A stretch of 64,000 bases of DNA from an uncultured bacterium (GTDB lineage Bacteria; B130-G9): NCBI GenBank assembly GCA_965372715.1, contig CBDVDH010000016.1, positions 1,744-65,743 on the forward strand, in the 5' to 3' direction. The notes under the pieces were generated by a model, which was not told the DNA's origin, ran no database searches, and saw nothing but the letters and a program-made list of their open reading frames with translations. Position numbers and translations under genes: made by a program. Of the stretch, positions 28,207 to 39,182 are shown one piece after another. Numbering within the stretch: the stretch's first letter is position 1; each line of letters begins with the position of its first letter.

Positions 28207-30147
28207 TTGTCGCGCAATGATGCACCTAAGGGCCGCTACTTGCTGACTTCGGCGGGGCTCAATCGCAGGCGGCCGATTATTCCAGTCCGCAAGACAGCTT
28301 GGGTTACAGTGATCGTTGCAGCCTTGCTGCTTGGCGTGCTGCCGGTTTGCTCCTACGCTCAGGCCGACAGATTCAAGGAAGCTATCCGCCGGCAGGAGAG
28401 CAGGTCGCCAGCCACGGACGAGAAGAAAACGAAACGGGCAACCGGCGACAGCAAGGCTCACAGAAAGGCTCGGCGGATGATCCAGAGCATTAGGGGCACG
28501 GGCCACGGAGGCGAGGACTATCAGCCGATGAGTCCTGAAGCCGTTGGCGAGCGAATGAGGGAGACCGAGGAAAAAAGCAAGTACTTCATGTGGGTGGTTA
28601 TCGGTGTCCCAGCCGTTCTGATTGTCCTTTTCGGACTGAAGTTCTTCTTCAATGTCTTCGTGAAGCCCGTCGTTACCCCGGTTCGGCGCTCCTTTAGGAC
28701 CCAAAGGGCGGCGGGACCCAGCGCATCGCAGGCCAGGAAGCTGGTCTCGATGGCAAGACGTTATGAACGCAAGGGCGCCGTCCTGGACGCTGCGCAGCTA
28801 TTCGAGGCAGCGGATGAAATAGAGACGATGCTCATGCAGGCGAAAAAAGGTGTATCCCGGGCCCCTGCCACGCGGACCCACCTTCAGCAGGCGGCGGACC
28901 TCTATGAGAAGGCCAGAGATTACAGGAAGGCTTCGGAGCTTCACAGTAAGCTGGGGGTGCCGGGCAAGATGAAGCAGCTATTCTCGCTTCAGGCCAAGGA
29001 ATACGAGTCCCAGCGGAAGTATCTCCTCGCGGCTGAGATGTATGCAAAGGCTCAGGACTTCGTTGCGGCGGCGGCGATGAACGAGGCTGGAGGGCACCTT
29101 CACGGCGCCGCTGCTTACTACGAGAAGGTCGGCGAGAGGCTGAAGGCTGCCAAGCTCTACGAGCAATTCTACCAGCAGGAGAAGATCGAGCATTTTGCGA
29201 GCATGCACGACCCACACACCTACAACTACGTCCGCAAGTACGCCCTCAAAAGCGCGAGGCACTACGCGGCGTGCGGTAAGTTTCGCAAGTCCGCTCAGAT
29301 ATTCGCCGAGTTCTCGGAGCACATCGCCGCCGGCAAGATGCTTCTCGAGGCGGAGCAATACATTGAGGCCGTCAACGTTCTCGTGAGGACTGACGAGGTC
29401 GAGCTCCTAAGGGATGCGCTCTCCAAGGTGGACATGGCGAAGATCAATCCCGAGTTGCTCGCCTCGGCGATGGAAAAGGTCGGTGATCCGGATGCGGCTG
29501 CGGATACTTTGCTCCGGGCGGGAAGGACGATCGAAGCCGCGTCGATTTACGAGCGAAGGGGCAAGTTCGGTAGGGCCGCCGAGATATATGAAAAGCAGGG
29601 CGACCTCGATACAGCGGCCGAGCTTTTTGCCCGAGCCAAAGACTACGAGCGCGCAGCAAAGTTATACATTCAACTGAACGACAAGAAGGCCGCGCTTCAG
29701 ATGTATCGCCAATTGGGTGATACGCGCAAAGTCGCCGAGTTGAAGGCCGAACTCGGCGACTTCTTCGATGCTGCCAGGGAGCTGTTTGGCCTGGGTGAGG
29801 ACGCAAGAGCCATGTCCATGCTTGAGCGCGTGGAGCCCAGCCACCCGGACTTTCTCGATGCGTATCGCCTCTTAGGCGAACGCCTTATCCAAGAAGGGCA
29901 GTATCAAAGGGTCAGAAGCATCTTTGAACCGATGATTCGATCCCTTAGGCCCCGCTCACGAGAGGCAAAGGAGATCTACTATTTGCTCGCGCTCGCCTCG
30001 GTCAAGGACAACCTGGTCGAGAAGGCGAAAGAATGCCTCGAACACGTGCTCGACATCGACTACTCATTCCGGGACGCGAGCCAGCTCTACGACTCACTCC
30101 TTGCAGGCGGCGGCCCAAGCCCGGTGAAGGATGACTCTCAGGGATAG
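28207..30147 (+). CDS. Membrane-anchored TPR-like helical repeat protein
   Basis: Signal-like segment and one TM; many AA.LYE.A.... repeats; overlaps the mfd start by 17 nt. True start uncertain. Confidence 0.75.
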   Translation: MSRNDAPKGRYLLTSAGLNRRRPIIPVRKTAWVTVIVAALLLGVLPVCSYAQADRFKEAIRRQESRSPATDEKKTKRATGDSKAHRKARRMIQSIRGTGHGGEDYQPMSPEAVGERMRETEEKSKYFMWVVIGVPAVLIVLFGLKFFFNVFVKPVVTPVRRSFRTQRAAGPSASQARKLVSMARRYERKGAVLDAAQLFEAADEIETMLMQAKKGVSRAPATRTHLQQAADLYEKARDYRKASELHSKLGVPGKMKQLFSLQAKEYESQRKYLLAAEMYAKAQDFVAAAAMNEAGGHLHGAAAYYEKVGERLKAAKLYEQFYQQEKIEHFASMHDPHTYNYVRKYALKSARHYAACGKFRKSAQIFAEFSEHIAAGKMLLEAEQYIEAVNVLVRTDEVELLRDALSKVDMAKINPELLASAMEKVGDPDAAADTLLRAGRTIEAASIYERRGKFGRAAEIYEKQGDLDTAAELFARAKDYERAAKLYIQLNDKKAALQMYRQLGDTRKVAELKAELGDFFDAARELFGLGEDARAMSMLERVEPSHPDFLDAYRLLGERLIQEGQYQRVRSIFEPMIRSLRPRSREAKEIYYLLALASVKDNLVEKAKECLEHVLDIDYSFRDASQLYDSLLAGGGPSPVKDDSQG

Positions 30148-33100
30148 AATCAGGCTTCTGGCCGGCCAGCAACGCTTTCAGTCGCTCCTGAAGCTCGTCG
30201 ATGAGGGCAAGAGCTCGACAGTGGTCGAGGGACTTTCCGGCGCGTCCGCCGCGATGCTCGTCGCACAACTCGCTCATCTGTCATCAAGACGGTTTCTGGT
30301 GCTCGTCGATGACATGCGTCAGGCACAATCGACCGTGGCCGACCTGTCGTTCTTTCTCAATCTGATACGAGGCGCTTATGCGCTCGAGGACGGCGCCTAT
30401 CTTCCGTCGGATGGAGCACCGCCCGATAGACGAGACGACATCTTTCATCTGCCCTCGAGATCGACGCTGCCTTTTGAGATGTTCTCACCGCCCCACCAGG
30501 AGATGGCCTCTCGCCACCTCGCCCTCCGCGCAGCGATGACCAGGGATGCCAGAGTAGTCGTCGCGCCGGTCGAGGCGCTGTTGATTCGCTCCGCGCCACA
30601 AGAGCTGGTCAGCCGATATGTTCTGAACCTCACCGTTTCGGACACGTGCGACATCGAGCGGGCTGCGACGATGCTCGTCGAGGCGGGCTACACGCGGGAA
30701 TACGTGGTCGAGCTGCCGGGCTCGTTCGCGATTCGCGGCGGGATTCTTGACGTGTTTCCGCCGAGCGCGGAGCTAGGCGTTAGGCTCGAACTGCTCGACG
30801 ACCGCATCGAATCGATACGCAAGTTCGACCCGAGCACGCAGCGGTCAATTGAGAAGGTGCAGTCGGCCATCATTCCGCCGGCCAGCGAGGTCATTCTGAC
30901 CGACGATGTGGCACAAAAGGCGATCAAAACACTCGTATCAATCGCGCCTCGTTCGGATCAATACATCAACTACCAGAACGTCATAGAGAAGATTGAGCAG
31001 CTAAGCCATTTCGGAGGGATAGAGAATTATCTCTCGCTCATCTACGGGGACGCGCCGGCGCCGCTCGATTTCTTCGATGAGAGCTTCTGCATCGCTTTTG
31101 CGACGAGTCGCCCGGCGGAGGAGCTCGTCTCAGCATTCTGGGACGGGGCTAACGAGGCGGCGGAGATGGCAAAGCGGACCTCGCTTTTTTTCTGCGACGA
31201 GATGCTTGCGAACTTCGTGGCGGCCGGCGAGTTCTTGAGCTCGCTCGCGAACAGACCTGGACTCTTCCTGCCAGACAATAGCTCGATTGCCATGGCCGTT
31301 CCCGACAGTCAGCTCGCCGAGTCGTTTGAGCGACTGCGGTTCGAGACCTCGAAAGTGGCGCCGGCTGGGACCGACGTTGTCTTGATGCTGCTTTCACTCT
31401 TCGACAAGAGGGCCGGGCCGTCGGCTGATTCGGTGCACGTCGTTTGCCACACGCCGCAGCAGGCCAAGAGGATGAGGCGGCTGATGCTATCGGACGACCT
31501 TGGTCCCGACATGCGCGACGACTCGGATGCGCCGTTTGCCGAGCTGTGCCTGGCCGACCTCTACCGCGAGGGAAGAGCGCAGCTTTTCGTCGGGCGGCTT
31601 TCGCGAGGATTCAGGTTCCCAGAACTCGCGATGACTCTAGTCTCAGAGGAGGAGCTTCTGGGGACCAAGATTGCGGCCAGGAAGCGCCGAGCCGAGAGAG
31701 TCGATGAGCAGATGCTCGACTTTGCCAGCCTCTCCGCCGGCGATTACGTCATCCATGTCGATTACGGGGTCGGCAAATATGTAGGCCTCAAAGCGATGCT
31801 CGTCGATGGCCGTCCCGTCGATTACATGACGGTCCTCTACGAGGACAATGATACACTCTACGTACCCGTCGAGGACCTGCAAGGCATCCAGAAATACGTC
31901 AGTTCAGGCGACGTCAAGCCGAAGCTGGACAGGATGGGTGGCAGCGCGTGGGCAAAGGCCGTTAAACGCGTCAAAAAAGCGGCGCAGCAGATCGCCAAGG
32001 AGCTTCTGGAGCTCTACGCGGCCAGAACGACGATTCAGGGGCTTGCGTTCGGCTGCGACACGCCCTGGCAATACCAGTTTGATCTAATGTTCGAATATGA
32101 TGAGACCCGCGATCAGCTTCTGACCATCGAGGATGTGAAGAAGGACATGGAGATTGCCAAGCCCATGGACCGCCTGATATGCGGCGATGTCGGCTACGGC
32201 AAGACCGAGGTTGCGCTCCGTGCCTCGTTCAAGGCGGTCAACAACAATAAGCAGGTGGCGATACTCGTCCCGACGACTGTGCTAGCCCAACAGCACAACG
32301 ACACGTTCCGCAGGCGGTTTGCGCAGTTCCCATACAAGGTCGAGATGTTGTCGCGGTTCAGGACGAGGGCAGAGCAAAAGAAGGTGCTCGAGGGCCTCAA
32401 GGACGGCACAGTCAGCATCGTCATCGGCACGCATCGGCTGCTTTCCAAAGACATCGAGTTCTATGACCTGGGCCTTCTCATCATCGACGAGGAGCACCGC
32501 TTCGGCGTCCGTCACAAGGAGAAGATCAAGCAGCTCAAAAAGCAGGTTGACGTCCTGACGATGACCGCAACGCCCATCCCCAGGACGCTCCACATGGCGC
32601 TGTCGGACCTTCGGGACATCAGCATAATTGACACGCCGCCCGAGGACAGATTGGCCATCAAGACCAGAATAGTCCGCTTCGACAAGGAGCTCATCCGCGA
32701 GGCGATAATCCGCGAGATAAGCCGCGGCGGGCAGGTCTATTTCGTCCACAACCGCGTCAAGAGCATCGACGCCGTCGCGCAGATGATCAACAGGCTCGTG
32801 CCCGAGGCGCGCATCGCGATCGGTCACGGTCAGATGGACGAGAAGGAGCTCGAAAACGTCATGGTCAAGTTCGTCCGCGGCGAGTTCGACGTCCTCGTCT
32901 GCACCACGATCATAGAATCTGGCCTCGACATCCCATCGGTCAACACGATCGTCATCAATCGAGCCGACAAGTTCGGCCTGGCCCAGCTGTATCAGCTCCG
33001 AGGTCGTGTGGGGCGCTACAAGCATCAGGCCTACGCCTACCTGATGATACCAAACCTCAAGACGCTGAGCCCGGACGCACGAAAGCGACTGGCGGCAATA

Positions 33101-33739
33101 AACGAGCTGACGGAGCTCGGCTCCGGCTTTCGGATCGCGACCTACGACTTACAGATACGAGGCTCGGGCAACCTCCTCGGCCCTGAGCAGCATGGGCACA
33201 TGAACGCCGTCGGATTCTACCTTTACTGTGATCTTCTGCGGGACGCGGTCCGCGAGATGAAGGGCGAGGCGCCGGCCGCAAAGGTCCCGGAGCCGACGTT
33301 CAACCTCCCCATCAACGCGCTTATCCCCGACCATTTTATAGCCGATTCCGACCAGCGGCTCTACATGTATCGAAAGCTGATAAGCGCGAAGGACGAGCTT
33401 GCCATTGACGAGCTGAGACGAGAGATACTCGACCGGTTTGGGCCGATGCCTGAGGAGGTCGATAACCTCCTGCTCCTCGCGAGCCTAAAGATAATCGCCA
33501 AGCAGGTAGGCCTGGAGATGGTGAGCCGCCGAGGCGCCGCGCTCTACTTCCAGTTCCGCGAGGACGGCGTCCTGCGGGCGGAGGACATCTCGCTGATCTT
33601 CGTTGAGCACGAGCGCGCCGTCTCCGTCGTCTCGGCCCACGCCGCCGTTGTCCGCACCCGCTACATCGAGGGCGACACCACCCTCGACATGCTCAAGTTC
33701 ATGCTGCTCTCGCTCAGGAAACTGCTCTCCGCCGCGTGA
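30131..33739 (+). CDS. mfd: Transcription-repair coupling factor
   Basis: UvrB-homology region, CarD-like RID (GDYVIHVDYGVGKY), CGDVGYGKTEVA, DEEHRFGV, QLYQLRGRVGR, TRG and TRCF domains; 1202 aa. Confidence 0.97.
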   Translation: MTLRDRIRLLAGQQRFQSLLKLVDEGKSSTVVEGLSGASAAMLVAQLAHLSSRRFLVLVDDMRQAQSTVADLSFFLNLIRGAYALEDGAYLPSDGAPPDRRDDIFHLPSRSTLPFEMFSPPHQEMASRHLALRAAMTRDARVVVAPVEALLIRSAPQELVSRYVLNLTVSDTCDIERAATMLVEAGYTREYVVELPGSFAIRGGILDVFPPSAELGVRLELLDDRIESIRKFDPSTQRSIEKVQSAIIPPASEVILTDDVAQKAIKTLVSIAPRSDQYINYQNVIEKIEQLSHFGGIENYLSLIYGDAPAPLDFFDESFCIAFATSRPAEELVSAFWDGANEAAEMAKRTSLFFCDEMLANFVAAGEFLSSLANRPGLFLPDNSSIAMAVPDSQLAESFERLRFETSKVAPAGTDVVLMLLSLFDKRAGPSADSVHVVCHTPQQAKRMRRLMLSDDLGPDMRDDSDAPFAELCLADLYREGRAQLFVGRLSRGFRFPELAMTLVSEEELLGTKIAARKRRAERVDEQMLDFASLSAGDYVIHVDYGVGKYVGLKAMLVDGRPVDYMTVLYEDNDTLYVPVEDLQGIQKYVSSGDVKPKLDRMGGSAWAKAVKRVKKAAQQIAKELLELYAARTTIQGLAFGCDTPWQYQFDLMFEYDETRDQLLTIEDVKKDMEIAKPMDRLICGDVGYGKTEVALRASFKAVNNNKQVAILVPTTVLAQQHNDTFRRRFAQFPYKVEMLSRFRTRAEQKKVLEGLKDGTVSIVIGTHRLLSKDIEFYDLGLLIIDEEHRFGVRHKEKIKQLKKQVDVLTMTATPIPRTLHMALSDLRDISIIDTPPEDRLAIKTRIVRFDKELIREAIIREISRGGQVYFVHNRVKSIDAVAQMINRLVPEARIAIGHGQMDEKELENVMVKFVRGEFDVLVCTTIIESGLDIPSVNTIVINRADKFGLAQLYQLRGRVGRYKHQAYAYLMIPNLKTLSPDARKRLAAINELTELGSGFRIATYDLQIRGSGNLLGPEQHGHMNAVGFYLYCDLLRDAVREMKGEAPAAKVPEPTFNLPINALIPDHFIADSDQRLYMYRKLISAKDELAIDELRREILDRFGPMPEEVDNLLLLASLKIIAKQVGLEMVSRRGAALYFQFREDGVLRAEDISLIFVEHERAVSVVSAHAAVVRTRYIEGDTTLDMLKFMLLSLRKLLSAA

Positions 33740-33825
33740 GAGAATGGCGTAATTCTCGTTATCCTCAGTCCATTGCCTTACGCGTTTTGGCCCAGGGCAG
33801 CGAGACGCCTCCCCAATCCTACTGG

Positions 33826-34686
33826 CTACTCCTCCCCAGTGACTTTCAAGGACTCGCCTTCGGCGATCCTGGGCGACGATTGCGACTGGACGACACTTTC
33901 GCAGACTTCACGCAGTTCAGGCTCTCCTCGTAGCTCTAAGAAATCGCTCATTTTGCTTTCCAGCTCGGCACGAAGTTGGTCAGTTTTCTCATGAGGGCCG
34001 TAACGCTGGGACGGGGCTACTGAGCCAGCATGTTCCGTGTCGTTGTCTTGGGTCATGACTGTCTCCCCTACACTTAGGTTCCTACTTATGGACGTAAAAC
34101 ATGCCGAAAATACGAGACTAAGAGAAAAAACGGTAATGAAGGCAATGAACAACCAGAACATAGCCGTCTGAGATCGGCGAATCCTATGGGCATGGTCAGC
34201 CCTCTCCCCCAATATCTCGTTATTCCGCTTGTAAGTCTTCCAGTAATTCTGTATAAGCTGTCGAAGCACAACAAGATCATCGACTTTTTGCTTTTCTCCG
34301 TGCATGTCCTCCGCATATTGCTCCAATGCTGCAATAGGAACAGAAGGAACATACATTTGGACCTTCAGCTGCTTAATGATCAAGTTGAGACAGAACAGAT
34401 AAGAGGCAAAGAACAAGCCGAGAGCTACGACCGATATCCAGAAGCTCGGGTCTCCGACTCCATTATGTCGAGCGTAGAACAGGGCAGATGCAGCGGGAAT
34501 GGCTAGAACCGTGTAAACACCAAGGATACCCAATCGCGAATTGACCCTTGAGTCGACTCCCTTGAAACTGTCAAATTGCGCCTGATAAGCATGCCTCAGG
34601 TAGTCAAGAATCAGCTTCAGGCCCTCCCTGGTCTTCTCTTCGGATGAGCGTGCGTCATCGCCGGCAGATTCTTCTTTGTCAGTCAT
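33826..34686 (-). CDS. Hypothetical 3-TM membrane protein, topologically like Pycsar/SLATT-type effectors
   Basis: Helix ending VDSRVNSRLGILG, then TM1, TM2, an amphipathic helix (YKRNNEILGERA), TM3 and an acidic tail; ATGA overlap with the upstream gene. Confidence 0.7.
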   Translation of the reverse strand: MTDKEESAGDDARSSEEKTREGLKLILDYLRHAYQAQFDSFKGVDSRVNSRLGILGVYTVLAIPAASALFYARHNGVGDPSFWISVVALGLFFASYLFCLNLIIKQLKVQMYVPSVPIAALEQYAEDMHGEKQKVDDLVVLRQLIQNYWKTYKRNNEILGERADHAHRIRRSQTAMFWLFIAFITVFSLSLVFSACFTSISRNLSVGETVMTQDNDTEHAGSVAPSQRYGPHEKTDQLRAELESKMSDFLELRGEPELREVCESVVQSQSSPRIAEGESLKVTGEE

Positions 34687-34886
34687 TCTGTGCTTTGATC
34701 CTCTCTGAGGAGGTCGTCAACTGAGCCGTCGAACTCCTGAAGGCAAAGCTCCAGAACCTCCTTCAGGTTGCGGTTGAGCTCGTCCAGCGTAGTGCCCTGA
34801 GTGTGTGCGCCGGGTATCCCTGGGACTATCCCAACGTAGAGCTTCGTCTCAGGATCATATTCAACGTAGCTGACGAAATGCTTCAT
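34683..34886 (-). CDS. HicB-family antitoxin-like protein, probably C-terminally truncated
   Basis: YVEYDPETKLYVGIVPGIPGAHTQGTTLDELNRNLKEVLELCL is a HicB N-domain pattern; no hicA nearby. Confidence 0.75.
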   Translation of the reverse strand: MKHFVSYVEYDPETKLYVGIVPGIPGAHTQGTTLDELNRNLKEVLELCLQEFDGSVDDLLREDQSTE

Positions 34887-34921
34887 GGCTTCCATCCTAT
34901 ATCAGTGCAATATCCCACGCG

Positions 34922-35797
34922 CTAAGTCGCAGGTGAGATGATCTTTGAGAGCTCTGGCCAAACCTCCTCCGCGTACCACTCGAAGAAGGCAATTGTGTTC
35001 TCATATTTGCTTTCCGTTCCTGCCGGTTTGTCGAATGTCGATATCGCCGCATGAAATGCCTCTTTCCCTGACTTGTAAGGAGCGTGGTCGCGCAACGGGG
35101 TTTCCATAAGAAACTGAATGGGCCAAGACACGCACCAGAGGAATTGAAAGGGGCAGGACGCGCACCACATGGGCCGACTCGATGGCTTTTTCAACGGGAC
35201 CTCATACTTGACTAAATGCGATTTGGATTCTGCACTGAAGGAGCGCCCTTTAGGTTGTCTTAAAGATGCTAGTTTCCCGTATGAATGACCGACATTTCGT
35301 CCTAGGTTTGGAGTGACGATGATCCCCGCCCAGTCCGCTGCTTCATACCAGGTAAAGGCCTCTACCAAAGCCGGCCCAAGCACCGTGTCGCCTTCGTGGA
35401 TATACTCGCCGCACGATACCGCGCCCCTGAAGAGGAAACCCTTCTGTCCCCTTTGGATTGTCAGGCCAAAAATCGTCTCCCAGATCAACTGACTAGGAAC
35501 CAATCTCAACAGAGGAATCGCGAACAGCTCTGGCCTAGATGGTACCTCCCAAGTTACGATTATTGTGTCTCCGAAAGTCGCAATCTGGGGTGCGCACGCC
35601 AGTCTATCTGGCTCATTCAGGATTCGGCACAGCTCTCCATATTGCTCCTCCAGATCCGGGAACGAGTCATTGACCTTTTTGATTATAATATCCCGGAGAG
35701 TAAGGAATCTCCCACATTCTTCAATTTCCAGGGTGCGGATGCCCAGAGCATCAAGCATCACGACGATGCCATTTTTTCTGTATTTGTCCTTCGCCAT
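34922..35797 (-). CDS. Stand-alone class III nucleotide-cyclase-like protein
   Basis: VVMLDALG (first Asp), ATFGDTII (second Asp), FRGAVSCG, VLGPALVEA..YE; no sensor or TM domain. Confidence 0.6.
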   Translation of the reverse strand: MAKDKYRKNGIVVMLDALGIRTLEIEECGRFLTLRDIIIKKVNDSFPDLEEQYGELCRILNEPDRLACAPQIATFGDTIIVTWEVPSRPELFAIPLLRLVPSQLIWETIFGLTIQRGQKGFLFRGAVSCGEYIHEGDTVLGPALVEAFTWYEAADWAGIIVTPNLGRNVGHSYGKLASLRQPKGRSFSAESKSHLVKYEVPLKKPSSRPMWCASCPFQFLWCVSWPIQFLMETPLRDHAPYKSGKEAFHAAISTFDKPAGTESKYENTIAFFEWYAEEVWPELSKIISPAT

Positions 35798-35887
35798 TGT
35801 CCTTCCTCACTTCATTTTGGCTACATCTATCGTCCACTATAACACATCTGCTTTGGTTCACTCTCAAACTTGAGATCGCAGCAGTGT

Positions 35888-36088
35888 GGCAATCCCCGAA
35901 GGGGATCAACGTGGGTAGCCGTTCGCCGCGCGGCGAACGGATCGAAACGGACGGAAAACCAAAAAACCCCGAAGCCGTCGGACAAAAGGGTTGGGATTGT
36001 ACGACGCATACGGGGGAAGGGTTTAAGCGGGGACCGATTCACCGCGGTGTAACGCGGGGCGACTCACGTTGCTACCCGTCAGGGAGCC
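35888..36088. mobile_element. REPIN/MITE-like element with nested inverted repeats
   Basis: Outer arms GGCAATCCCCGAAGGGGATCAACGTGGGTAGCC and (reverse complement) GGCTCCCTGACGGGTAGCAACGTGAGTCGCC; perfect 22-bp palindrome at 35919-35940; inner imperfect IR at 35969-35985/35997-36013. Confidence 0.55.
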
Positions 36089-36158
36089 ATAAGATGATAC
36101 ATATCATCCTAATTCTGCATAACGCAGAGCTGCTTGATCTCGTCATCCGACAACGTTT

Positions 36159-36539
36159 CTACGTAAATCTCAACCGTTCATAGACAACCTTGCCGGAATT
36201 GAAGACCTCGGTGATGATGTGGTTAACCGTGCCGTTCCATTCTACAACCTCTTCAGGCGTGTACACCAGAATGTCCATCGCACACGGCATCGGACGAAAT
36301 GCCAGCGTAATCGGCACCGATCTCTTATGCCTGGGCAGGTCAGTGTCCATGACCACAAGCAGGTCTAGATCGCTGTCCGGCGTGGGGTTCCCACTTGCGT
36401 ATGAGCCAAAGATGATGATCCTCTCCGGCGAGAACCTGTCCACGATTTCTCCCACAATCACGTTAATGGTCTCCGGCGCGATCAATTCGCCCGTTTTATG
36501 CTCTATCAGAGAACCTCTTTTCACCGCAACTTCCCGCAT
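36159..36539 (-). CDS. Minimal nucleotidyltransferase (MNT antitoxin of the HEPN-MNT type)
   Basis: IIIFGSYASGNPTPDSDLDLLVV...MDILVYTPEE...GKVVYE. Confidence 0.88.
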   Translation of the reverse strand: MREVAVKRGSLIEHKTGELIAPETINVIVGEIVDRFSPERIIIFGSYASGNPTPDSDLDLLVVMDTDLPRHKRSVPITLAFRPMPCAMDILVYTPEEVVEWNGTVNHIITEVFNSGKVVYERLRFT

Positions 36540-36604
36540 CAGACGCCTTCACCCGCCAATCCATGCTCATCTTTCTCGATTATGACACTCACCTTGTGGG
36601 TCAT
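36539..36604 (-). pseudogene. 21-codon 5' stub of a second HicB-family gene
   Basis: AGGAGG RBS; MTHKVSVIIEKDEHG resembles a HicB start, then LAGEGV-stop, which overlaps the MNT ATG (TGATG). Confidence 0.5.
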
Positions 36605-36695
36605 CTCTCGCATCCTCCTATGACGACTATCAGTCTATTCTCTTCAACCTTGAGTATAGCACAAGCCGAGGTATGGAGACAAACCTGCCAGACTG

Positions 36696-39182
36696 CTAGC
36701 CTGAGGTTGGCGGCTCTCGCGCCGGGGGTTCGCTCGCCATCGACTGCGTGTCGTCACGGTCGGCGGAATACAGCCACTTGTAGATGCGGTATGAGGCGAG
36801 GACCTTTTGGGCGTAGCGGCGGGTCTCGGAGAAGGCTATTGCGTTGATGAATTCCTCGTCCGCCACCTCGTCTGGACACGTCTTGAGCCATCTCTCGACG
36901 TTGCTCGGGCCGCCATTGTAAGATGCCAGGGCGAAAACCATCCGGCCGTCGAAGCGGTTTAGGAGTTGGCTCAAGTATTTGACGCCCAGCGCGATATTGG
37001 TCTCTGGCTCATAGAGCTCATGAAGCGCCACGCTGCCGAGTCCCAAGGACCGAGCTACCTGCCTGGCCGTCGGCGGGATCAGCTGCATGACGCCCCTGGC
37101 CGCTGCCGACGAGACGCTCCCGACTTGGAAACGGCTCTCCTCCCGGATTACCGCATAGACGATGGCCGGGTCAACGTCGTGCATCCTGCTGTATTGCTCA
37201 ACGTGGCGCGAGAATCCGCGCGGATACATCGCCTCAACAAACCACGTCGGCGTGTCTGAGACAGCAAGGCCAAGACCGTTGAGCCCCTTGAAAGCACGCT
37301 CCGCGAGCAGAATGGTCTCATTCCGCCTTCCGAGCCGCTCAAACGTTCTGATAGTGGCGTAGAGTGTTTCCAGGTCTTTGGGCTTCCTGAGAGACAGCGA
37401 TCGAAGAATGTGCGCGCCCTTGTCGTCCATCCCGAGCGAGATGAAGAACGAGGCCACGTCTCTTTCTGTCCCATTACCCTCCTGAGGCGGAGGCCTCAAG
37501 GGCCATCTTGGGCGCCCGTCGAGCGCAAAGAGGCCCGCCGTCCGCTCGTGCGCCTTCAGAAAAGCATCCCGCAATTCGGCAGCCTTGCGCCACGTCGCGG
37601 AACCGTCGGCCGACAGAACTTGAGCCTTCCGAAGCATGGCGAGATAGCCAGCGTCGTCCCCCTTGCGGCGACACTGCTCACCCGAGCGAAACGCGTCATC
37701 AACCAGCCTCGTCAGCACGCTGGGATTAACCTTGCCCTCCGCCTTCAGCTCGCGGAGCCTGTCGAGCGAGGCAAGACCGAAATAGATGTTGGGGAAGTCG
37801 GCGTAATTGGCAGCGTAGCGTTCGGCTGCCTCCTCATAGTTGCCCTGCAAGTCGCGCAATTTCGCCATGAAGTAGCAGGCGTCGTCGTAGTAAGGGGTTT
37901 CCTGTCCCAAAGTGATCAGCCGAGACAGGGCCTCTTCTCCGGATGCCAAGTGGCCGGCGCCGAACGCCGCGAGCACGAGGCGCCACATCGCGTGAGCCGC
38001 GTAACTCTCTTGCGGGAACTGCTCGAGAACGGATTCAAAGGCTGCGCGGGATTGCCCGTCCCGTCCGGCTGCTTCGAGCTCTCGACCGACCAGAAATGCC
38101 GCCTTCGCGCGCGTTGAATCGTCAGGTGAGCTGGCGGAGACAGCGCTATAGCGTTGGATAGCGCTATCGTGCCGACCCAGCCTGCTATGGCAGTGCCCGA
38201 TATATGTATCCGCCCAGGCTATGTCCTTAGGCTCTCGATAATCTTCTTTCAGCCGCTCAAACTGCCTCGCCGCCGCGGAGTAGCTCTTCTGTTTGAAGAG
38301 GCAAAGCGCCGTCGTGCGCCTGGCCTTTGCCAGGAGTGGTTTTGGGCTTCTTGGGGGCACCTTGCGGAGATAGCGAAGGCCCGCCGTGTACTTGTGGTTC
38401 CAGAGGCAGACCTCACCGGCGGCAAGGTAGAACGCTGGACCAAGACGTTTGTCGATCCCGCAATGAGGTTTGAGCGCAAGAAGCCTATCAAGCGACCTGG
38501 CGCTGTAGTCATTCCGGTCCTCGCGCATCAAAAGGGAGAGGTATCGCTCGCACGCCTGGTCTATCCTGCCCAACTTCTCCAGGCAGCTCGCTATCATAAA
38601 GGAGAAGCGCGTGTCACTGTTTGACCGAAAGACGGCGCCGAGGCGCTCAAAATGGACGAGCGCAGCATCGTAACGCCCGGCGTTATAGAGCGCCTGAGCG
38701 AGGCCACTGACGGCTTCCTTGAACCCGTTGTCGGGCGGGTATTCGTCGCCTAGCGTCTTCGCGGCAGCTTCGGCCTGAGCCCAATGCTCGCCCTTCACGG
38801 CCCACGAAATAGCGTCGCAGAGAGCGTGCTTGCCGATCGGGCCCGCCGATGACGCCTGTAAAGCGATGAGAAGCCGCGCCGCGTCCGCGTAGGCGCCCAT
38901 TTGGCCAGAAGTCACGGCCCTAAGATAGTCGAGGCGGTAGGCGCGGTAGGCGCCGGGGAGCAGGTTCGCTATCTCGTCCAGCTCTTTAAGCAGAGCGTCA
39001 TAGTTCTTCTGCCTGAAGAGGTCCGCCAGTCGTTCCGCGCGGGCGCTGGTCTCCCAGACTTCTAACGCGTCAGCAAGCCTCAAGAGGGTTCCGCTCGCGT
39101 GAGCGGCAGACGGCACGATTACACACGAAAGCAGAATAACTGCAACAGCGGCCGGCCCGAACGACCTCACATTCCCAAGCAT
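36696..39182 (-). CDS. slt: Soluble lytic murein transglycosylase with TPR-like superhelix
   Basis: Signal peptide; helical repeats; SLT domain AVIREESRF...ARGVMQLIP...LASYNGG...ETRRYAQKV. Confidence 0.88.
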   Translation of the reverse strand: MLGNVRSFGPAAVAVILLSCVIVPSAAHASGTLLRLADALEVWETSARAERLADLFRQKNYDALLKELDEIANLLPGAYRAYRLDYLRAVTSGQMGAYADAARLLIALQASSAGPIGKHALCDAISWAVKGEHWAQAEAAAKTLGDEYPPDNGFKEAVSGLAQALYNAGRYDAALVHFERLGAVFRSNSDTRFSFMIASCLEKLGRIDQACERYLSLLMREDRNDYSARSLDRLLALKPHCGIDKRLGPAFYLAAGEVCLWNHKYTAGLRYLRKVPPRSPKPLLAKARRTTALCLFKQKSYSAAARQFERLKEDYREPKDIAWADTYIGHCHSRLGRHDSAIQRYSAVSASSPDDSTRAKAAFLVGRELEAAGRDGQSRAAFESVLEQFPQESYAAHAMWRLVLAAFGAGHLASGEEALSRLITLGQETPYYDDACYFMAKLRDLQGNYEEAAERYAANYADFPNIYFGLASLDRLRELKAEGKVNPSVLTRLVDDAFRSGEQCRRKGDDAGYLAMLRKAQVLSADGSATWRKAAELRDAFLKAHERTAGLFALDGRPRWPLRPPPQEGNGTERDVASFFISLGMDDKGAHILRSLSLRKPKDLETLYATIRTFERLGRRNETILLAERAFKGLNGLGLAVSDTPTWFVEAMYPRGFSRHVEQYSRMHDVDPAIVYAVIREESRFQVGSVSSAAARGVMQLIPPTARQVARSLGLGSVALHELYEPETNIALGVKYLSQLLNRFDGRMVFALASYNGGPSNVERWLKTCPDEVADEEFINAIAFSETRRYAQKVLASYRIYKWLYSADRDDTQSMASEPPAREPPTSG

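What the first reader, a model, noticed from the sequence alone, without database searches (positions are those of the whole stretch)
33826..35797. Stand-alone class III cyclase-like enzyme with a 3-TM effector-like protein: candidate Pycsar-like cyclic-nucleotide defence system
Seen: in an AT-richer insert between convergent housekeeping genes (mfd, slt) there is a soluble 291-aa protein with both putative metal-binding Asp (MLD, FGD) and RG...G / GPALVEA motifs. Downstream and co-oriented is a protein with helix-TM-TM-helix-TM topology. Knowledge: Pycsar pairs a class III cyclase making cCMP/cUMP with a PycTM membrane effector. Inference: this cyclase lacks the usual PycC look and belongs to a divergent family, so the pair may be an undescribed nucleotide-signalling abortive-infection system. 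Caveat: a HicB-like gene lies between them, so they could be independent cassettes.
Basis: partly seen in the sequence, partly recalled or inferred. Interest (0 to 1): 0.72.

Follow-up and report, generated by a model that had tools for sequence, protein, structure and literature searches.

The report
Lone cyclase-fold gene, not Pycsar
The 291-aa protein does have the fold and metal-binding residues of adenylyl/guanylyl cyclases, but it belongs to a large unannotated family that travels as a single gene, and the membrane protein and HicB gene next to it are separate residents of a variable chromosomal hotspot, not its partners.

Summary
Three tightly packed minus-strand genes lie in a lower-GC stretch between convergent mfd and slt: a 291-aa protein, a 70-aa HicB and a 286-aa three-TM protein. 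All the quoted motifs are present.

The cyclase reading holds at fold level. An AlphaFold model (pLDDT 87) matches only class III cyclases among the top 50 PDB hits. D16 and D77 are invariant and align with the two metal-binding Asp. The canonical Asn/Arg pair is absent, and a conserved C-terminal subdomain (E262, K264, N267) is family-specific.

The family is large (3,477 representative clusters) and has no Pfam, NCBIfam or PADLOC model.

The Pycsar-like pairing is not supported:
- Across 58 distinct members there is no conserved neighbour and no recurrent TM partner. Several members sit alone between opposite-strand genes.
- In close relatives the genes assort independently. One genome has the TM protein without the cyclase. 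Another contig has the cyclase with intact hicB-hicA and no TM protein.
- HicB is an orphaned antitoxin of a resident hicBA module.

Best reading: a solo, horizontally mobile, divergent cyclase-fold nucleotidyl-transfer enzyme in a variable hotspot. A single-gene conflict or defence role is possible but untested.

The parts
34922..35797 (-). 291-aa stand-alone class III cyclase-fold protein. Metal-binding Asp are D16 (35750-35752) and D77 (35567-35569). The beta4 Arg is R124 (35426-35428). Family-specific C-terminal residues are E262 (35012-35014), K264 (35006-35008) and N267 (34997-34999).
   Evidence: No Pfam, NCBIfam or PADLOC hit. Family of 3,477 representative clusters. AF2 pLDDT 87, pTM 0.87. 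All top 50 Foldseek PDB hits are class III cyclases. Conservation profile. Residue mapping to CHDs.
34683..34895 (-). 70-aa HicB-family antitoxin (N-terminal UPF0150 domain only). It is orphaned: there is no hicA. Its last ~9 residues differ from the 72-aa consensus form.
   Evidence: Pfam UPF0150 and HicB_lk. 2,521 homologues, best 93% identity over 87% of the query, annotated HicB. 90% DNA identity to hicB in syntenic L138 and 88% in L139. hicA is present next to hicB-type genes in L138 and L139 but not here.
33826..34686 (-). 286-aa lineage-specific three-TM protein of unknown function. Its start overlaps the hicB stop by 4 bp. It is not a demonstrated partner of the cyclase-like gene.
   Evidence: No Pfam or NCBIfam hit and only E 0.03 to PADLOC 4TM effectors. 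No homologue by word search and none in the other six genomes of the phylum. The one homologue is L138:5341-6201 (286 aa, 26% identity, E 4e-21), in the same slot next to mfd in a genome without the cyclase-like gene.
35798..36158 (.). Intergenic spacer upstream of the cyclase-like gene. It holds a terminator-like hairpin on the minus strand (35968-35982) and short dispersed REP-like repeats (35835-36110).
   Evidence: Terminator scan. Partial copies on five other contigs of the same genome. 72-88% similar stretches in the hotspot of G001 and L138. No Rfam or tRNA hit.
36159..36539 (-). 126-aa MntA-like nucleotidyltransferase with no HEPN/HepT partner. It is a separate small cassette in the same hotspot.
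   Evidence: Pfam NTP_transf_2 and Polbeta E ~5e-11. NCBIfam MntA_antitoxin E 1e-7, below cut-off. Absent from the hotspot in L138 and G001.
30131..33739 (+). mfd, the conserved left border of the variable hotspot.
   Evidence: ORF and Pfam content. 79-96% conserved in relatives, with similarity ending ~10 nt after the stop.
36696..39182 (-). TPR-SLT lytic transglycosylase gene, the conserved right border of the hotspot.
   Evidence: ORF. SLT and TPR Pfam families in the syntenic L138 orthologue. Relatives.

Best explanation
Window 34922-35797(-) encodes a member of a large, unannotated family of ~230-300-aa stand-alone proteins with the class III nucleotidyl-cyclase (CHD/palm) fold.

Shown:
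- The fold.
- The two invariant metal-binding Asp (D16, D77) and the beta4 Arg (R124).
- The loss of the canonical transition-state Asn/Arg pair.
- A conserved family-specific C-terminal subdomain (Y198, P201, W225-P226, E262, K264, N267).
- Sporadic distribution in bacteria, archaea, plasmids and viral contigs.
- The absence of any conserved neighbour.

Inferred: it is a divalent-metal-dependent nucleotidyl-transfer enzyme. It would act on an NTP to give a cyclic or linear nucleotide product plus PPi, probably as a homodimer. Residues of the C-terminal subdomain would replace the missing Asn/Arg. It would work as a self-contained single-gene accessory function, most plausibly in phage or mobile-element conflict.

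The neighbouring genes are not its partners. hicB is the orphaned antitoxin of a hicBA module resident in this slt-mfd hotspot. The three-TM protein is a lineage-specific resident of the mfd-proximal slot. The tight spacing of the three genes reflects cassette shuffling or deletion in a hotspot, not a Pycsar-like cyclase-effector system.
For: Fold:
- AF2 on a 129-sequence MSA gives pLDDT 87 and pTM 0.87.
- All top 50 PDB Foldseek hits are class III cyclases at probability 0.97-1.0 (1.00 for the top 10), with target-normalised TM about 0.5-0.6 for single-domain cyclase chains. They include sGC 3uvj, the cUMP synthase 7r65, Ma1120 and Rv1264.
- A cruder first model gave the same hit list.

Sequence bridge to canonical cyclases:
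- The family profile matches a 266-aa paralogue in the same genome at hhalign prob 94.9, E 4.5e-8.
- That paralogue matches PF00211 at E 0.007.
- It matches a profile of 30 canonical CHDs at prob 85.6, E 5.6e-6, with both Asp, the beta4 Arg and the Asn aligned.

Conservation.

Family size and lack of annotation.

Solo nature:
- Of 76 loci there are 58 distinct members with no shared neighbour cluster. The only recurrent neighbours are DNA methyltransferases, largely from four mutually syntenic viral-type contigs.
- L012, L065, L066, L087, L106 and L108 are flanked by opposite-strand genes on both sides.
- The same holds for the own-genome paralogue.

Independent assortment in close relatives:
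- L138 (Ca. Coatesbacteria GCA_016933485.1) has slt - hicB-type modules and hicA - 286-aa TM homologue - mfd, with no cyclase-like gene.
- L139 has cyclase-like (32% identity) - hicB - hicA - mfd, with no TM gene.
- G004 has two family copies elsewhere and no TM homologue.

Accessory character:
- 3 of 61 related or sampled genomes carry a match.
- The gene has lower GC than its flanks.
- Defence-type neighbours occur in several loci: HepT/MNT, ParE, NERD, Mrr-TPR, RM genes, Schlafen-like, PDC-S60.
Against: No biochemical data exist. Activity, substrate and product are all inferred.

The canonical Asn and Arg are missing: position 145 is A/S/F/T and position 149 is S/A/N. The protein could therefore be catalytically different or inactive.

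Direct profile-profile similarity of the family to CHDs is weak (E 0.021). The homology claim rests on fold plus a transitive link.

The three genes are packed like an operon, with no terminator-like site between them, so co-transcription and some functional coupling in this genome cannot be excluded.

The defence association is only qualitative. Many neighbours are housekeeping genes such as thrS, acs, RuBisCO and GMP synthase.
Confidence: 0.7

Rival explanations
1. One reading: the cyclase-like enzyme senses infection and makes a cyclic nucleotide that activates the downstream three-TM protein. This would be a Pycsar-like abortive-infection system, with or without HicB as a regulator.
For: The three genes are co-oriented and tightly packed (26-bp gap, 4-bp overlap), with no terminator-like site between them. 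The region has low GC. The TM protein gives a faint PADLOC match to CBASS 4TM effectors at E 0.03. Known cyclase systems do swap effectors.
Against: The TM protein has no cNMP-binding or other sensor domain. Its cytoplasmic parts are a ~70-aa loop and a non-conserved tail.

Its only homologue sits in the same slot of a genome that lacks the cyclase-like gene.

L139 has the cyclase-like gene and hicBA but no TM gene.

None of 58 distinct family loci has a related neighbour, and TM-containing co-oriented downstream neighbours (~9 of 58) are no more frequent than expected by chance.

There is no PADLOC PycC hit, and the catalytic Asn/Arg are absent.
Confidence: 0.07
2. The cyclase-like protein is the toxin or effector of a toxin-antitoxin-like module neutralised by the downstream HicB. 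This would make a cyclase-like - HicB (- HicA) unit.
For: In both the window and L139 a family member lies directly upstream of hicB, with gaps of 26 bp and 120 bp, next to mfd. The two family alleles are only 32% identical while hicB is 88-90% identical in DNA.
Against: hicB in L139 has its own hicA with a 4-bp overlap, so it is an ordinary hicBA pair. L138 has the same hicB without any family member. No HicB/UPF0150 family appears among the recurrent neighbours of ~55 other loci. The two cases are syntenic relatives, so they count as one observation.
Confidence: 0.06
3. The protein is a catalytically inactive pseudo-cyclase. It would be a nucleotide- or ligand-binding regulator or sensor that merely keeps the palm fold.
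For: The canonical transition-state Asn/Arg are lost. No PF00211 hit reaches threshold.
Against: The two metal-binding Asp are invariant in 129 of 129 sequences and R124 in 128 of 129. A further set of polar residues (D/E146, E262, K264, N267) is >=90% conserved. That pattern is typical of an active site, not of a scaffold.
Confidence: 0.12
4. It is an ordinary housekeeping signalling cyclase of this organism, making cAMP or cGMP for physiology, with no link to conflict or mobility.
For: The genome carries eight canonical PF00211 cyclases, so cyclic-nucleotide signalling is prominent. Some family members sit among housekeeping genes.
Against: The gene is absent from the same-genus genome G001 and from 58 of 61 genomes sampled. 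It has lower GC and GC3 than its flanks. It sits in a hotspot whose content differs in every relative examined. Relatives are found on plasmids between recombinase genes and on viral-type contigs. It has no sensor or regulatory domain.
Confidence: 0.08

Closest known systems
Class III adenylyl/guanylyl cyclase catalytic domains (CHD, Pfam PF00211; e.g. human sGC 3uvj/2wz1, M. avium Ma1120 4wp8, M. tuberculosis Rv1264 1y11)
   Same: Same predicted fold (Foldseek prob 1.0). Two metal-binding Asp on beta1 and the beta2-beta3 hairpin, and the beta4 Arg, are conserved and aligned.
   Different: No PF00211 hit. The transition-state Asn/Arg pair is replaced by small residues. There is a ~100-residue family-specific C-terminal subdomain with invariant E262/K264/N267. 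There are no regulatory domains. Distribution is sporadic and mobile.
Pycsar (PycC pyrimidine cyclase plus PycTM/PycTIR effector; PMC11224242) and the related cGMP-producing Pucsar system (bioRxiv 10.64898/2026.08.12.744502)
   Same: A class III cyclase-fold enzyme in a defence-like, low-GC context with a TM protein nearby. PycC structures (7r65, 8jsz) are among the fold hits.
   Different: No PycC HMM hit. No conserved effector neighbour in 58 loci. The TM protein lacks any nucleotide-binding domain and assorts independently of the cyclase-like gene.
Panoptes OptS minimal CRISPR polymerase (mCpol) with a 2TM effector (PDB 9mnr; PMC12657230)
   Same: A small stand-alone palm-domain nucleotide synthase near a membrane protein.
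   Different: OptS appeared only at rank 49 (E 0.074) with the crude model and was not in the top 50 with the good model. The family is twice as long and closer to class III cyclases than to Cas10/GGDEF palms. It has no conserved membrane partner.
HicAB type II toxin-antitoxin modules
   Same: The 70-aa gene is a typical short HicB, 93% identical to annotated HicB. Syntenic relatives carry hicA beside it.
   Different: Here hicA is missing, the HicB C-terminus is altered, and the three-TM gene takes the place of hicA at the 4-bp overlap.
DefensePredictor DS-1 (YejK/NA37-like protein plus 404-aa TM protein, validated in E. coli; PMC13092281)
   Same: One close family member (P0003; L001-L003) directly follows an NA37-family gene with a 27-bp gap. 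NA37-like proteins are now a validated defence component.
   Different: The second protein of DS-1 is unrelated to the cyclase-fold family (judged by eye, not computed) and to the window's TM protein. The window has no NA37 gene.

Membership tests
Class III nucleotidyl cyclase (CHD, PF00211) | CHD palm fold (beta-alpha-beta-beta-alpha-beta core with a 7-8-stranded sheet) | tested here: met
   AF2 pLDDT 87. All top 50 PDB Foldseek hits are class III cyclases, prob 0.97-1.0 (1.00 for the top 10), target-normalised TM about 0.5-0.6 for single-domain cyclase chains.
Class III nucleotidyl cyclase (CHD, PF00211) | Two metal-binding Asp (beta1 and beta2-beta3 hairpin) | tested here: met
   D16 and D77 are invariant in 129 of 129 sequences. 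They align with the CHD Asp through the paralogue bridge and in the forced alignment.
Class III nucleotidyl cyclase (CHD, PF00211) | Transition-state Asn and Arg in helix alpha4 (G-x-x-V-N-x-A-x-R-x-E) | tested here: not met
   The aligned positions are 145 (A/S/F/T, N in 8 of 129) and 149 (S/A/N/E/D). The family instead conserves D/E146 and W150.
Class III nucleotidyl cyclase (CHD, PF00211) | Sequence match to the family model above the curated threshold | tested here: not met
   No PF00211 hit for the protein or for any of 129 relatives. Only the distant paralogue reaches 16.4 bits against a cut-off of 21.9.
Class III nucleotidyl cyclase (CHD, PF00211) | Substrate-specifying residue pair and NTP cyclase activity | not testable with these tools
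   Needs a structure superposition with ligand and an enzyme assay.
Pycsar | PycC-type cyclase recognised by defence-system HMMs | tested here: not met
   No PADLOC hit for the 291-aa protein. The paralogue hits PycC at only E 0.025.
Pycsar | Adjacent effector (TM or TIR) conserved with the cyclase and able to read a cNMP | tested here: not met
   No conserved neighbour in 58 distinct loci. The TM protein has no cNMP_binding or other Pfam domain.
Pycsar | Co-inheritance of cyclase and effector | tested here: not met
   L138 has the TM homologue without the cyclase. L139 has the cyclase without the TM gene. G004 has the cyclase twice and no TM homologue.
Pycsar | Phage protection by abortive infection | not testable with these tools
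   Requires a phage challenge.
HicAB toxin-antitoxin | HicB N-terminal (UPF0150) antitoxin domain | tested here: met
   Pfam E 3.6e-6 and 1.8e-4. 93% identity to annotated HicB.
HicAB toxin-antitoxin | Adjacent HicA toxin gene | tested here: not met
   No HicA-like ORF in 33740-36700. hicA is present in the syntenic L138 and L139.
SLATT / PycTM / CBASS TM effectors (for the 286-aa protein) | Match to a family model of known TM effectors | tested here: not met
   No Pfam hit to SLATT or Pycsar-effector families at E <= 1. PADLOC 4TM effector only at E 0.03.

The most novel reading that the evidence does not exclude
The family (about 3,500 clusters at 50% identity, in bacteria, archaea, plasmids and viral contigs, invisible to Pfam, NCBIfam and PADLOC) would be a new class of single-protein conflict enzyme. 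It would be a cyclase-fold homodimer whose remodelled active site (two Asp plus R124, D/E146, E262, K264, N267) makes a non-canonical nucleotide product, or depletes or modifies nucleotides, and this alone would limit phage or mobile-element replication without a separate effector. That would be analogous in logic to prokaryotic viperins. Divergent alleles would be exchanged at chromosomal hotspots such as slt-mfd.
Probability: 0.3. Interest if true: 0.7.

Novelty: new variant of a known kind. Interest (0 to 1): 0.45.

Why it matters
Class III cyclases are among the best-studied signalling enzymes, and Pycsar showed that they can serve immunity. This is a very large relative family that standard annotation misses completely. 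It keeps the metal site but has replaced the rest of the catalytic apparatus, and it travels as a lone gene.

Working out its product would show either a new nucleotide signal or antiviral nucleotide chemistry, or a new use of the palm fold.

For annotation practice, the result also warns against calling cyclase-plus-TM adjacency a Pycsar-like system without checking co-inheritance. Here comparison with two close relatives is enough to separate the genes.

Tried and rejected
- Direct family searches (Pfam, NCBIfam, PADLOC, PHROGs) for the 291-aa and 286-aa proteins found nothing significant. The only hit was phrog_23933 (unknown function) at E 4.4e-5.
- PDB sequence searches with the single protein and with the profile gave only E ~0.5-0.8.
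- The first AF2 model, on 6 sequences, was poor (pLDDT 62). It was redone with 129 sequences.
- hhalign of the family against 30 canonical CHDs gave only a local 52-column match at E 0.021. A paralogue bridge was needed.
- The search for related loci with the 129-sequence alignment failed. The 6-sequence alignment was used instead.
- I tested whether the ~300-aa upstream partners (the NA37-like protein and the L008, L010, L023 and L005 proteins) are related. BLAST found no similarity and they have different or no Pfam and PADLOC hits.
- I considered a restriction-enzyme role because of the adjacent D12 methyltransferases. I rejected it because the fold is a cyclase palm and most of the association comes from one syntenic viral-type group.
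- I tested a DS-1 (YejK plus TM) link. The window's TM protein showed no BLAST similarity to the DS-1 second protein, and that protein shows none of the family's motifs by eye (sequence; no computed comparison).
- The orphan repeat at 35915-35948 looked CRISPR-like but is single-copy in the window. The region consists of short dispersed repeats, with no Rfam or tRNA hit.
- The possible cyclase-like variant next to mfd in G001 could not be confirmed. Matches are weak and limited to the beta1 region.
- Searches of the viral structure library and the phage genome collection found no close phage homologue.
- The C-terminal extension of fusion protein P0136 looks PD-(D/E)xK-like by eye but gave no PDB match.
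Full report
**Observation**

The window carries three minus-strand ORFs between mfd (30131-33739, +) and a TPR-SLT transglycosylase gene (36696-39182, -), which converge:
- 291 aa at 34922-35797
- 70 aa at 34683-34895
- 286 aa at 33826-34686

A fourth small gene, a 126-aa MntA-like nucleotidyltransferase (36159-36539, -), lies between them and slt.

GC falls from ~0.60 in the flanks to 0.50-0.53 in these genes. GC3 falls from 0.73-0.78 to 0.55-0.67. The 286-aa protein has three strongly hydrophobic helices, at about 52-70, 86-104 and 179-197.

**The 291-aa protein**

It has no hit in Pfam, NCBIfam or PADLOC. A word-based search found only five relatives. A profile search of 1.84 billion cluster representatives found 3,477 proteins at E <= 1e-3 and 350 at E <= 1e-30, nearly all 230-300 aa. 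None of 129 members tested hits any Pfam family.

Conservation in the 129-sequence alignment:
- Invariant: D16, D77, G125, G130, G141, G158.
- At least 90% conserved: L18, G19, F75, R124, P142, A143, D/E146, W150, P163, Y198, P201, W225, P226, E262, K264.
- N267 is conserved in 116 of 129.

An AlphaFold model built on this alignment is confident (pLDDT 87, pTM 0.87). Its 50 best PDB matches are all class III adenylyl, guanylyl or uridylyl cyclases, at probability 0.97-1.0 (1.00 for the top 10). Target-normalised TM is about 0.5-0.6 for single-domain cyclase chains and lower for long multidomain targets. A cruder first model gave the same list.

**Sequence link to canonical cyclases**

Direct sequence evidence is weak. 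hhalign of the family against 30 canonical CHDs from related genomes gives a local match at E 0.021.

There is a bridge. A 266-aa paralogue elsewhere in the same genome (G000:C3) matches the family profile at probability 94.9, E 4.5e-8. That paralogue matches PF00211 at E 0.007. It matches the CHD profile at probability 85.6, E 5.6e-6 over 158 columns.

Through these alignments:
- D16 and D77 correspond to the two metal-binding Asp.
- R124 corresponds to the beta4 Arg.
- The canonical transition-state Asn and Arg correspond to positions 145 and 149, which are small and variable in the family.

So the fold and metal site of a class III cyclase are retained, the rest of the canonical catalytic set is not, and a conserved C-terminal subdomain is added.

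**Partners across the family**

I collected 76 loci from assemblies, genomes, metagenomes and viral contigs. They represent 58 members below 90% identity.

All-against-all BLAST of 260 neighbours found no shared neighbour family apart from DNA methyltransferases. Most of those come from four mutually syntenic viral-type contigs, where the gene converges on two D12 methyltransferases.

A Pfam tally of 150 neighbours within two genes shows the following:
- D12 methyltransferase, 7
- TPR, 4
- N6_N4 methyltransferase, ResIII, DUF4145 and SWI2_SNF2, 2 each
- otherwise singletons, including housekeeping enzymes

Several members are flanked by opposite-strand genes on both sides (L012, L065, L066, L087, L106, L108). 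So is the own-genome paralogue.

Some close relatives have an immediately upstream co-oriented gene, but it differs each time:
- an NA37/YejK-like protein (L001-L003)
- an RDD-like membrane protein (L005)
- unknown proteins (L008, L010)
- a protein related to the N-terminus of PADLOC candidate PDC-S60 (L023)

Co-oriented downstream neighbours with TM helices occur in about 9 of 58 loci. They are unrelated to each other, and some are plainly housekeeping (a Vut_1 transporter, a trypsin-like protease). The family therefore behaves as a solo gene.

**The hotspot in close relatives**

This is the decisive evidence. The HicB-like protein belongs to a very common and highly conserved 72-aa HicB family (2,521 hits). 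The best hit is 93% identical and annotated as from Candidatus Coatesbacteria. Its closest relatives led to two syntenic loci.

L138 (GCA_016933485.1) has this order:
- rluB-like, leuD, slt
- UPF0150-like gene, hicB
- UPF0150-like gene, hicA
- a 286-aa protein
- mfd

That 286-aa protein is a full-length homologue of the window's TM protein (26% identity, E 4e-21, same three-TM topology). L138 has no cyclase-like gene.

L139 (metagenome) reads cyclase-like gene, hicB, hicA, mfd. The cyclase-like gene is cut by the contig end, and its remaining C-terminal 128 aa carry all the family motifs. It has no TM gene. Its cyclase-like protein is only 32% identical to the window's, while hicB is 88-90% identical in DNA.

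The same-genus genome G001 lacks both genes at E thresholds that detect them elsewhere. Its hotspot content is different again and broken by contig ends. G004, from the same family, has two family copies at other places. One is followed by a 2TM-Mrr-TPR protein and the other lies next to ybaB-recR. G004 has no TM homologue.

The two genes therefore assort independently:

| Locus | Cyclase-like gene | TM gene |
|---|---|---|
| Window | present | present |
| L139 | present | absent |
| L138 | absent | present |
| G001 | absent | absent |

DNA comparison shows the hotspot is a mosaic. Short conserved intergenic pieces occur in a different order in the window and in L138, and the MNT gene and the cyclase-like gene are inserted between them. 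In the window hicA is missing and the last ~9 residues of HicB are replaced. The TM gene starts at the 4-bp overlap that hicA occupies in L139. That points to a deletion or recombination junction rather than an evolved coupling.

**Operon status**

A terminator-like hairpin lies upstream of the cyclase-like gene (35968-35982, minus strand). No such site lies between the three genes, so they may well be co-transcribed in this genome. That is the main residual support for a functional link. It is outweighed by the comparative data.

**Mechanism**

Shown:
- a cyclase palm fold
- an invariant two-Asp metal site with R124
- a conserved polar and aromatic set in a private C-terminal subdomain

Inferred:
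- The protein is a metal-dependent nucleotidyl-transfer enzyme, probably homodimeric like other CHDs.
- C-terminal residues (E262, K264, N267) substitute for the missing Asn/Arg.
- The product is unknown.
- The protein acts without a dedicated effector.

Several features fit an accessory conflict gene:
- sporadic distribution (3 of 61 genomes)
- presence in at least nine phyla of bacteria and archaea
- presence on a Bacillus plasmid between recombinase genes and on viral-type contigs
- occasional fusions to TPR, and possibly to nuclease or zinc-ribbon modules, judged by eye from the sequences
- frequent TA, RM or defence-type neighbours

None of this is proof, and many neighbours are housekeeping genes.

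**Comparison with known systems**

- The protein works like, and is a fold-level relative of, class III cyclases. It fails the sequence-model and Asn/Arg criteria.
- It is not a Pycsar member. There is no PycC HMM hit, no conserved effector and no co-inheritance. For the definition of Pycsar see PMC11224242. For the cGMP offshoot Pucsar see bioRxiv 10.64898/2026.08.12.744502.
- It is not a Panoptes-type mCpol.
- NA37/YejK-like proteins, which precede one close relative, were recently validated as part of defence system DS-1 (PMC13092281). The DS-1 partner shows no BLAST similarity to the window's TM protein and shows none of the family's motifs by eye.

**Earlier notes of this scan**

Earlier notes describe what appear to be the same or sister families as solo, unannotated cyclase-fold genes wrongly paired with neighbouring membrane proteins. 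I reached the same reading from my own data before reading them. I count them as agreement, not evidence.

**Verdict**

- The cyclase-fold interpretation is supported.
- The Pycsar-like pairing is not supported.
- The gene is a member of a large, undescribed variant of the class III cyclase fold.
- Interest is moderate and rests on the family, not on this locus.

Noticed in passing
window 36159-36539 (-): A MntA-like nucleotidyltransferase (126 aa) with no HEPN/HepT partner downstream. It looks like an orphan type VII antitoxin-like gene inserted in the same hotspot, and it is absent from the hotspot in L138 and G001.
   Followed up: partly
window 35835-36110: The intergenic stretch has a perfect hairpin (GCCGTTCGCCGCGCGGCGAACGG) and short dispersed repeats. 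Partial copies lie on five other contigs of the genome, and 72-88% similar pieces lie in the same hotspot of relatives in a different order. There is no Rfam or tRNA match. It is a REP-like element that may mediate the cassette shuffling.
   Followed up: partly
own genome G000:C3:75712-76512 (L032:5713-6513, -): A 266-aa distant paralogue of the family that keeps the canonical Asn (GPALNRAYHLES). It gives sub-threshold hits to PF00211 and PycC. It is also a solo gene between opposite-strand genes (a cation/Ca2+ exchanger-like gene and an Nnr-like gene).
   Followed up: partly
G001:C148 after mfd (L119:1380-1942) and G001:C68:1-524 (L127): In the same-genus genome the slot next to mfd holds a plus-strand ORF starting MNQRNDEKAVAFVDLLGYG...FLQSDSLVAY...PRGAIAVG. 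It resembles a very distant cyclase-like protein, but only weak matches in the beta1 region were found. The contig breaks inside it.
   Followed up: partly
L001:4948-5973 with L001:6001-6771 (also L002, L003): A close family member (P0003) directly follows an NA37/YejK-like gene with a 27-bp gap. NA37-like proteins were recently validated as part of E. coli defence system DS-1, which has a different second gene. This may be a two-gene subtype.
   Followed up: partly
L030:63-1478 (G004:C147): In a genome of the same taxonomic family, a family member is followed after 136 bp by a 471-aa protein with two TM helices, an Mrr_cat nuclease domain and TPR repeats. This is a defence-type architecture, with PADLOC hits to the ZorD nuclease part and to PDC-S02.
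   Followed up: partly
L065, L066, L108, L106 (IMG/VR and metagenome contigs): On viral-type contigs the family gene converges on two tandem D12-class adenine methyltransferases and lies beside a ~990-aa three-TM protein. The arrangement resembles a moron or RM-like unit.
   Followed up: partly
P0136, P0143, P0150, P0067 (family representatives): Rare fusions of the family domain to C-terminal TPR repeats (P0143, P0150), a zinc-ribbon tail (P0067) and a ~150-aa extension with a D...EVK motif that looks PD-(D/E)xK-like (P0136). All are judged by eye from the sequences. The P0136 extension gave no PDB sequence match.
   Followed up: partly
L138:3766-4959: The syntenic Coatesbacteria hotspot holds two near-duplicate UPF0150-like ORFs (sharing the stretch KIRAKFVRDGKWWVAWTDDVPGALTQGETL) plus hicB and hicA. 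This hotspot accumulates HicAB-type modules.
   Followed up: no
whole genome: The organism appears to belong to Candidatus Coatesbacteria. The best HicB and synteny matches point there, and only 7 genomes of the phylum are in the species set. It carries eight canonical PF00211 cyclase genes, mostly in proteins longer than 1,000 aa.
   Followed up: no
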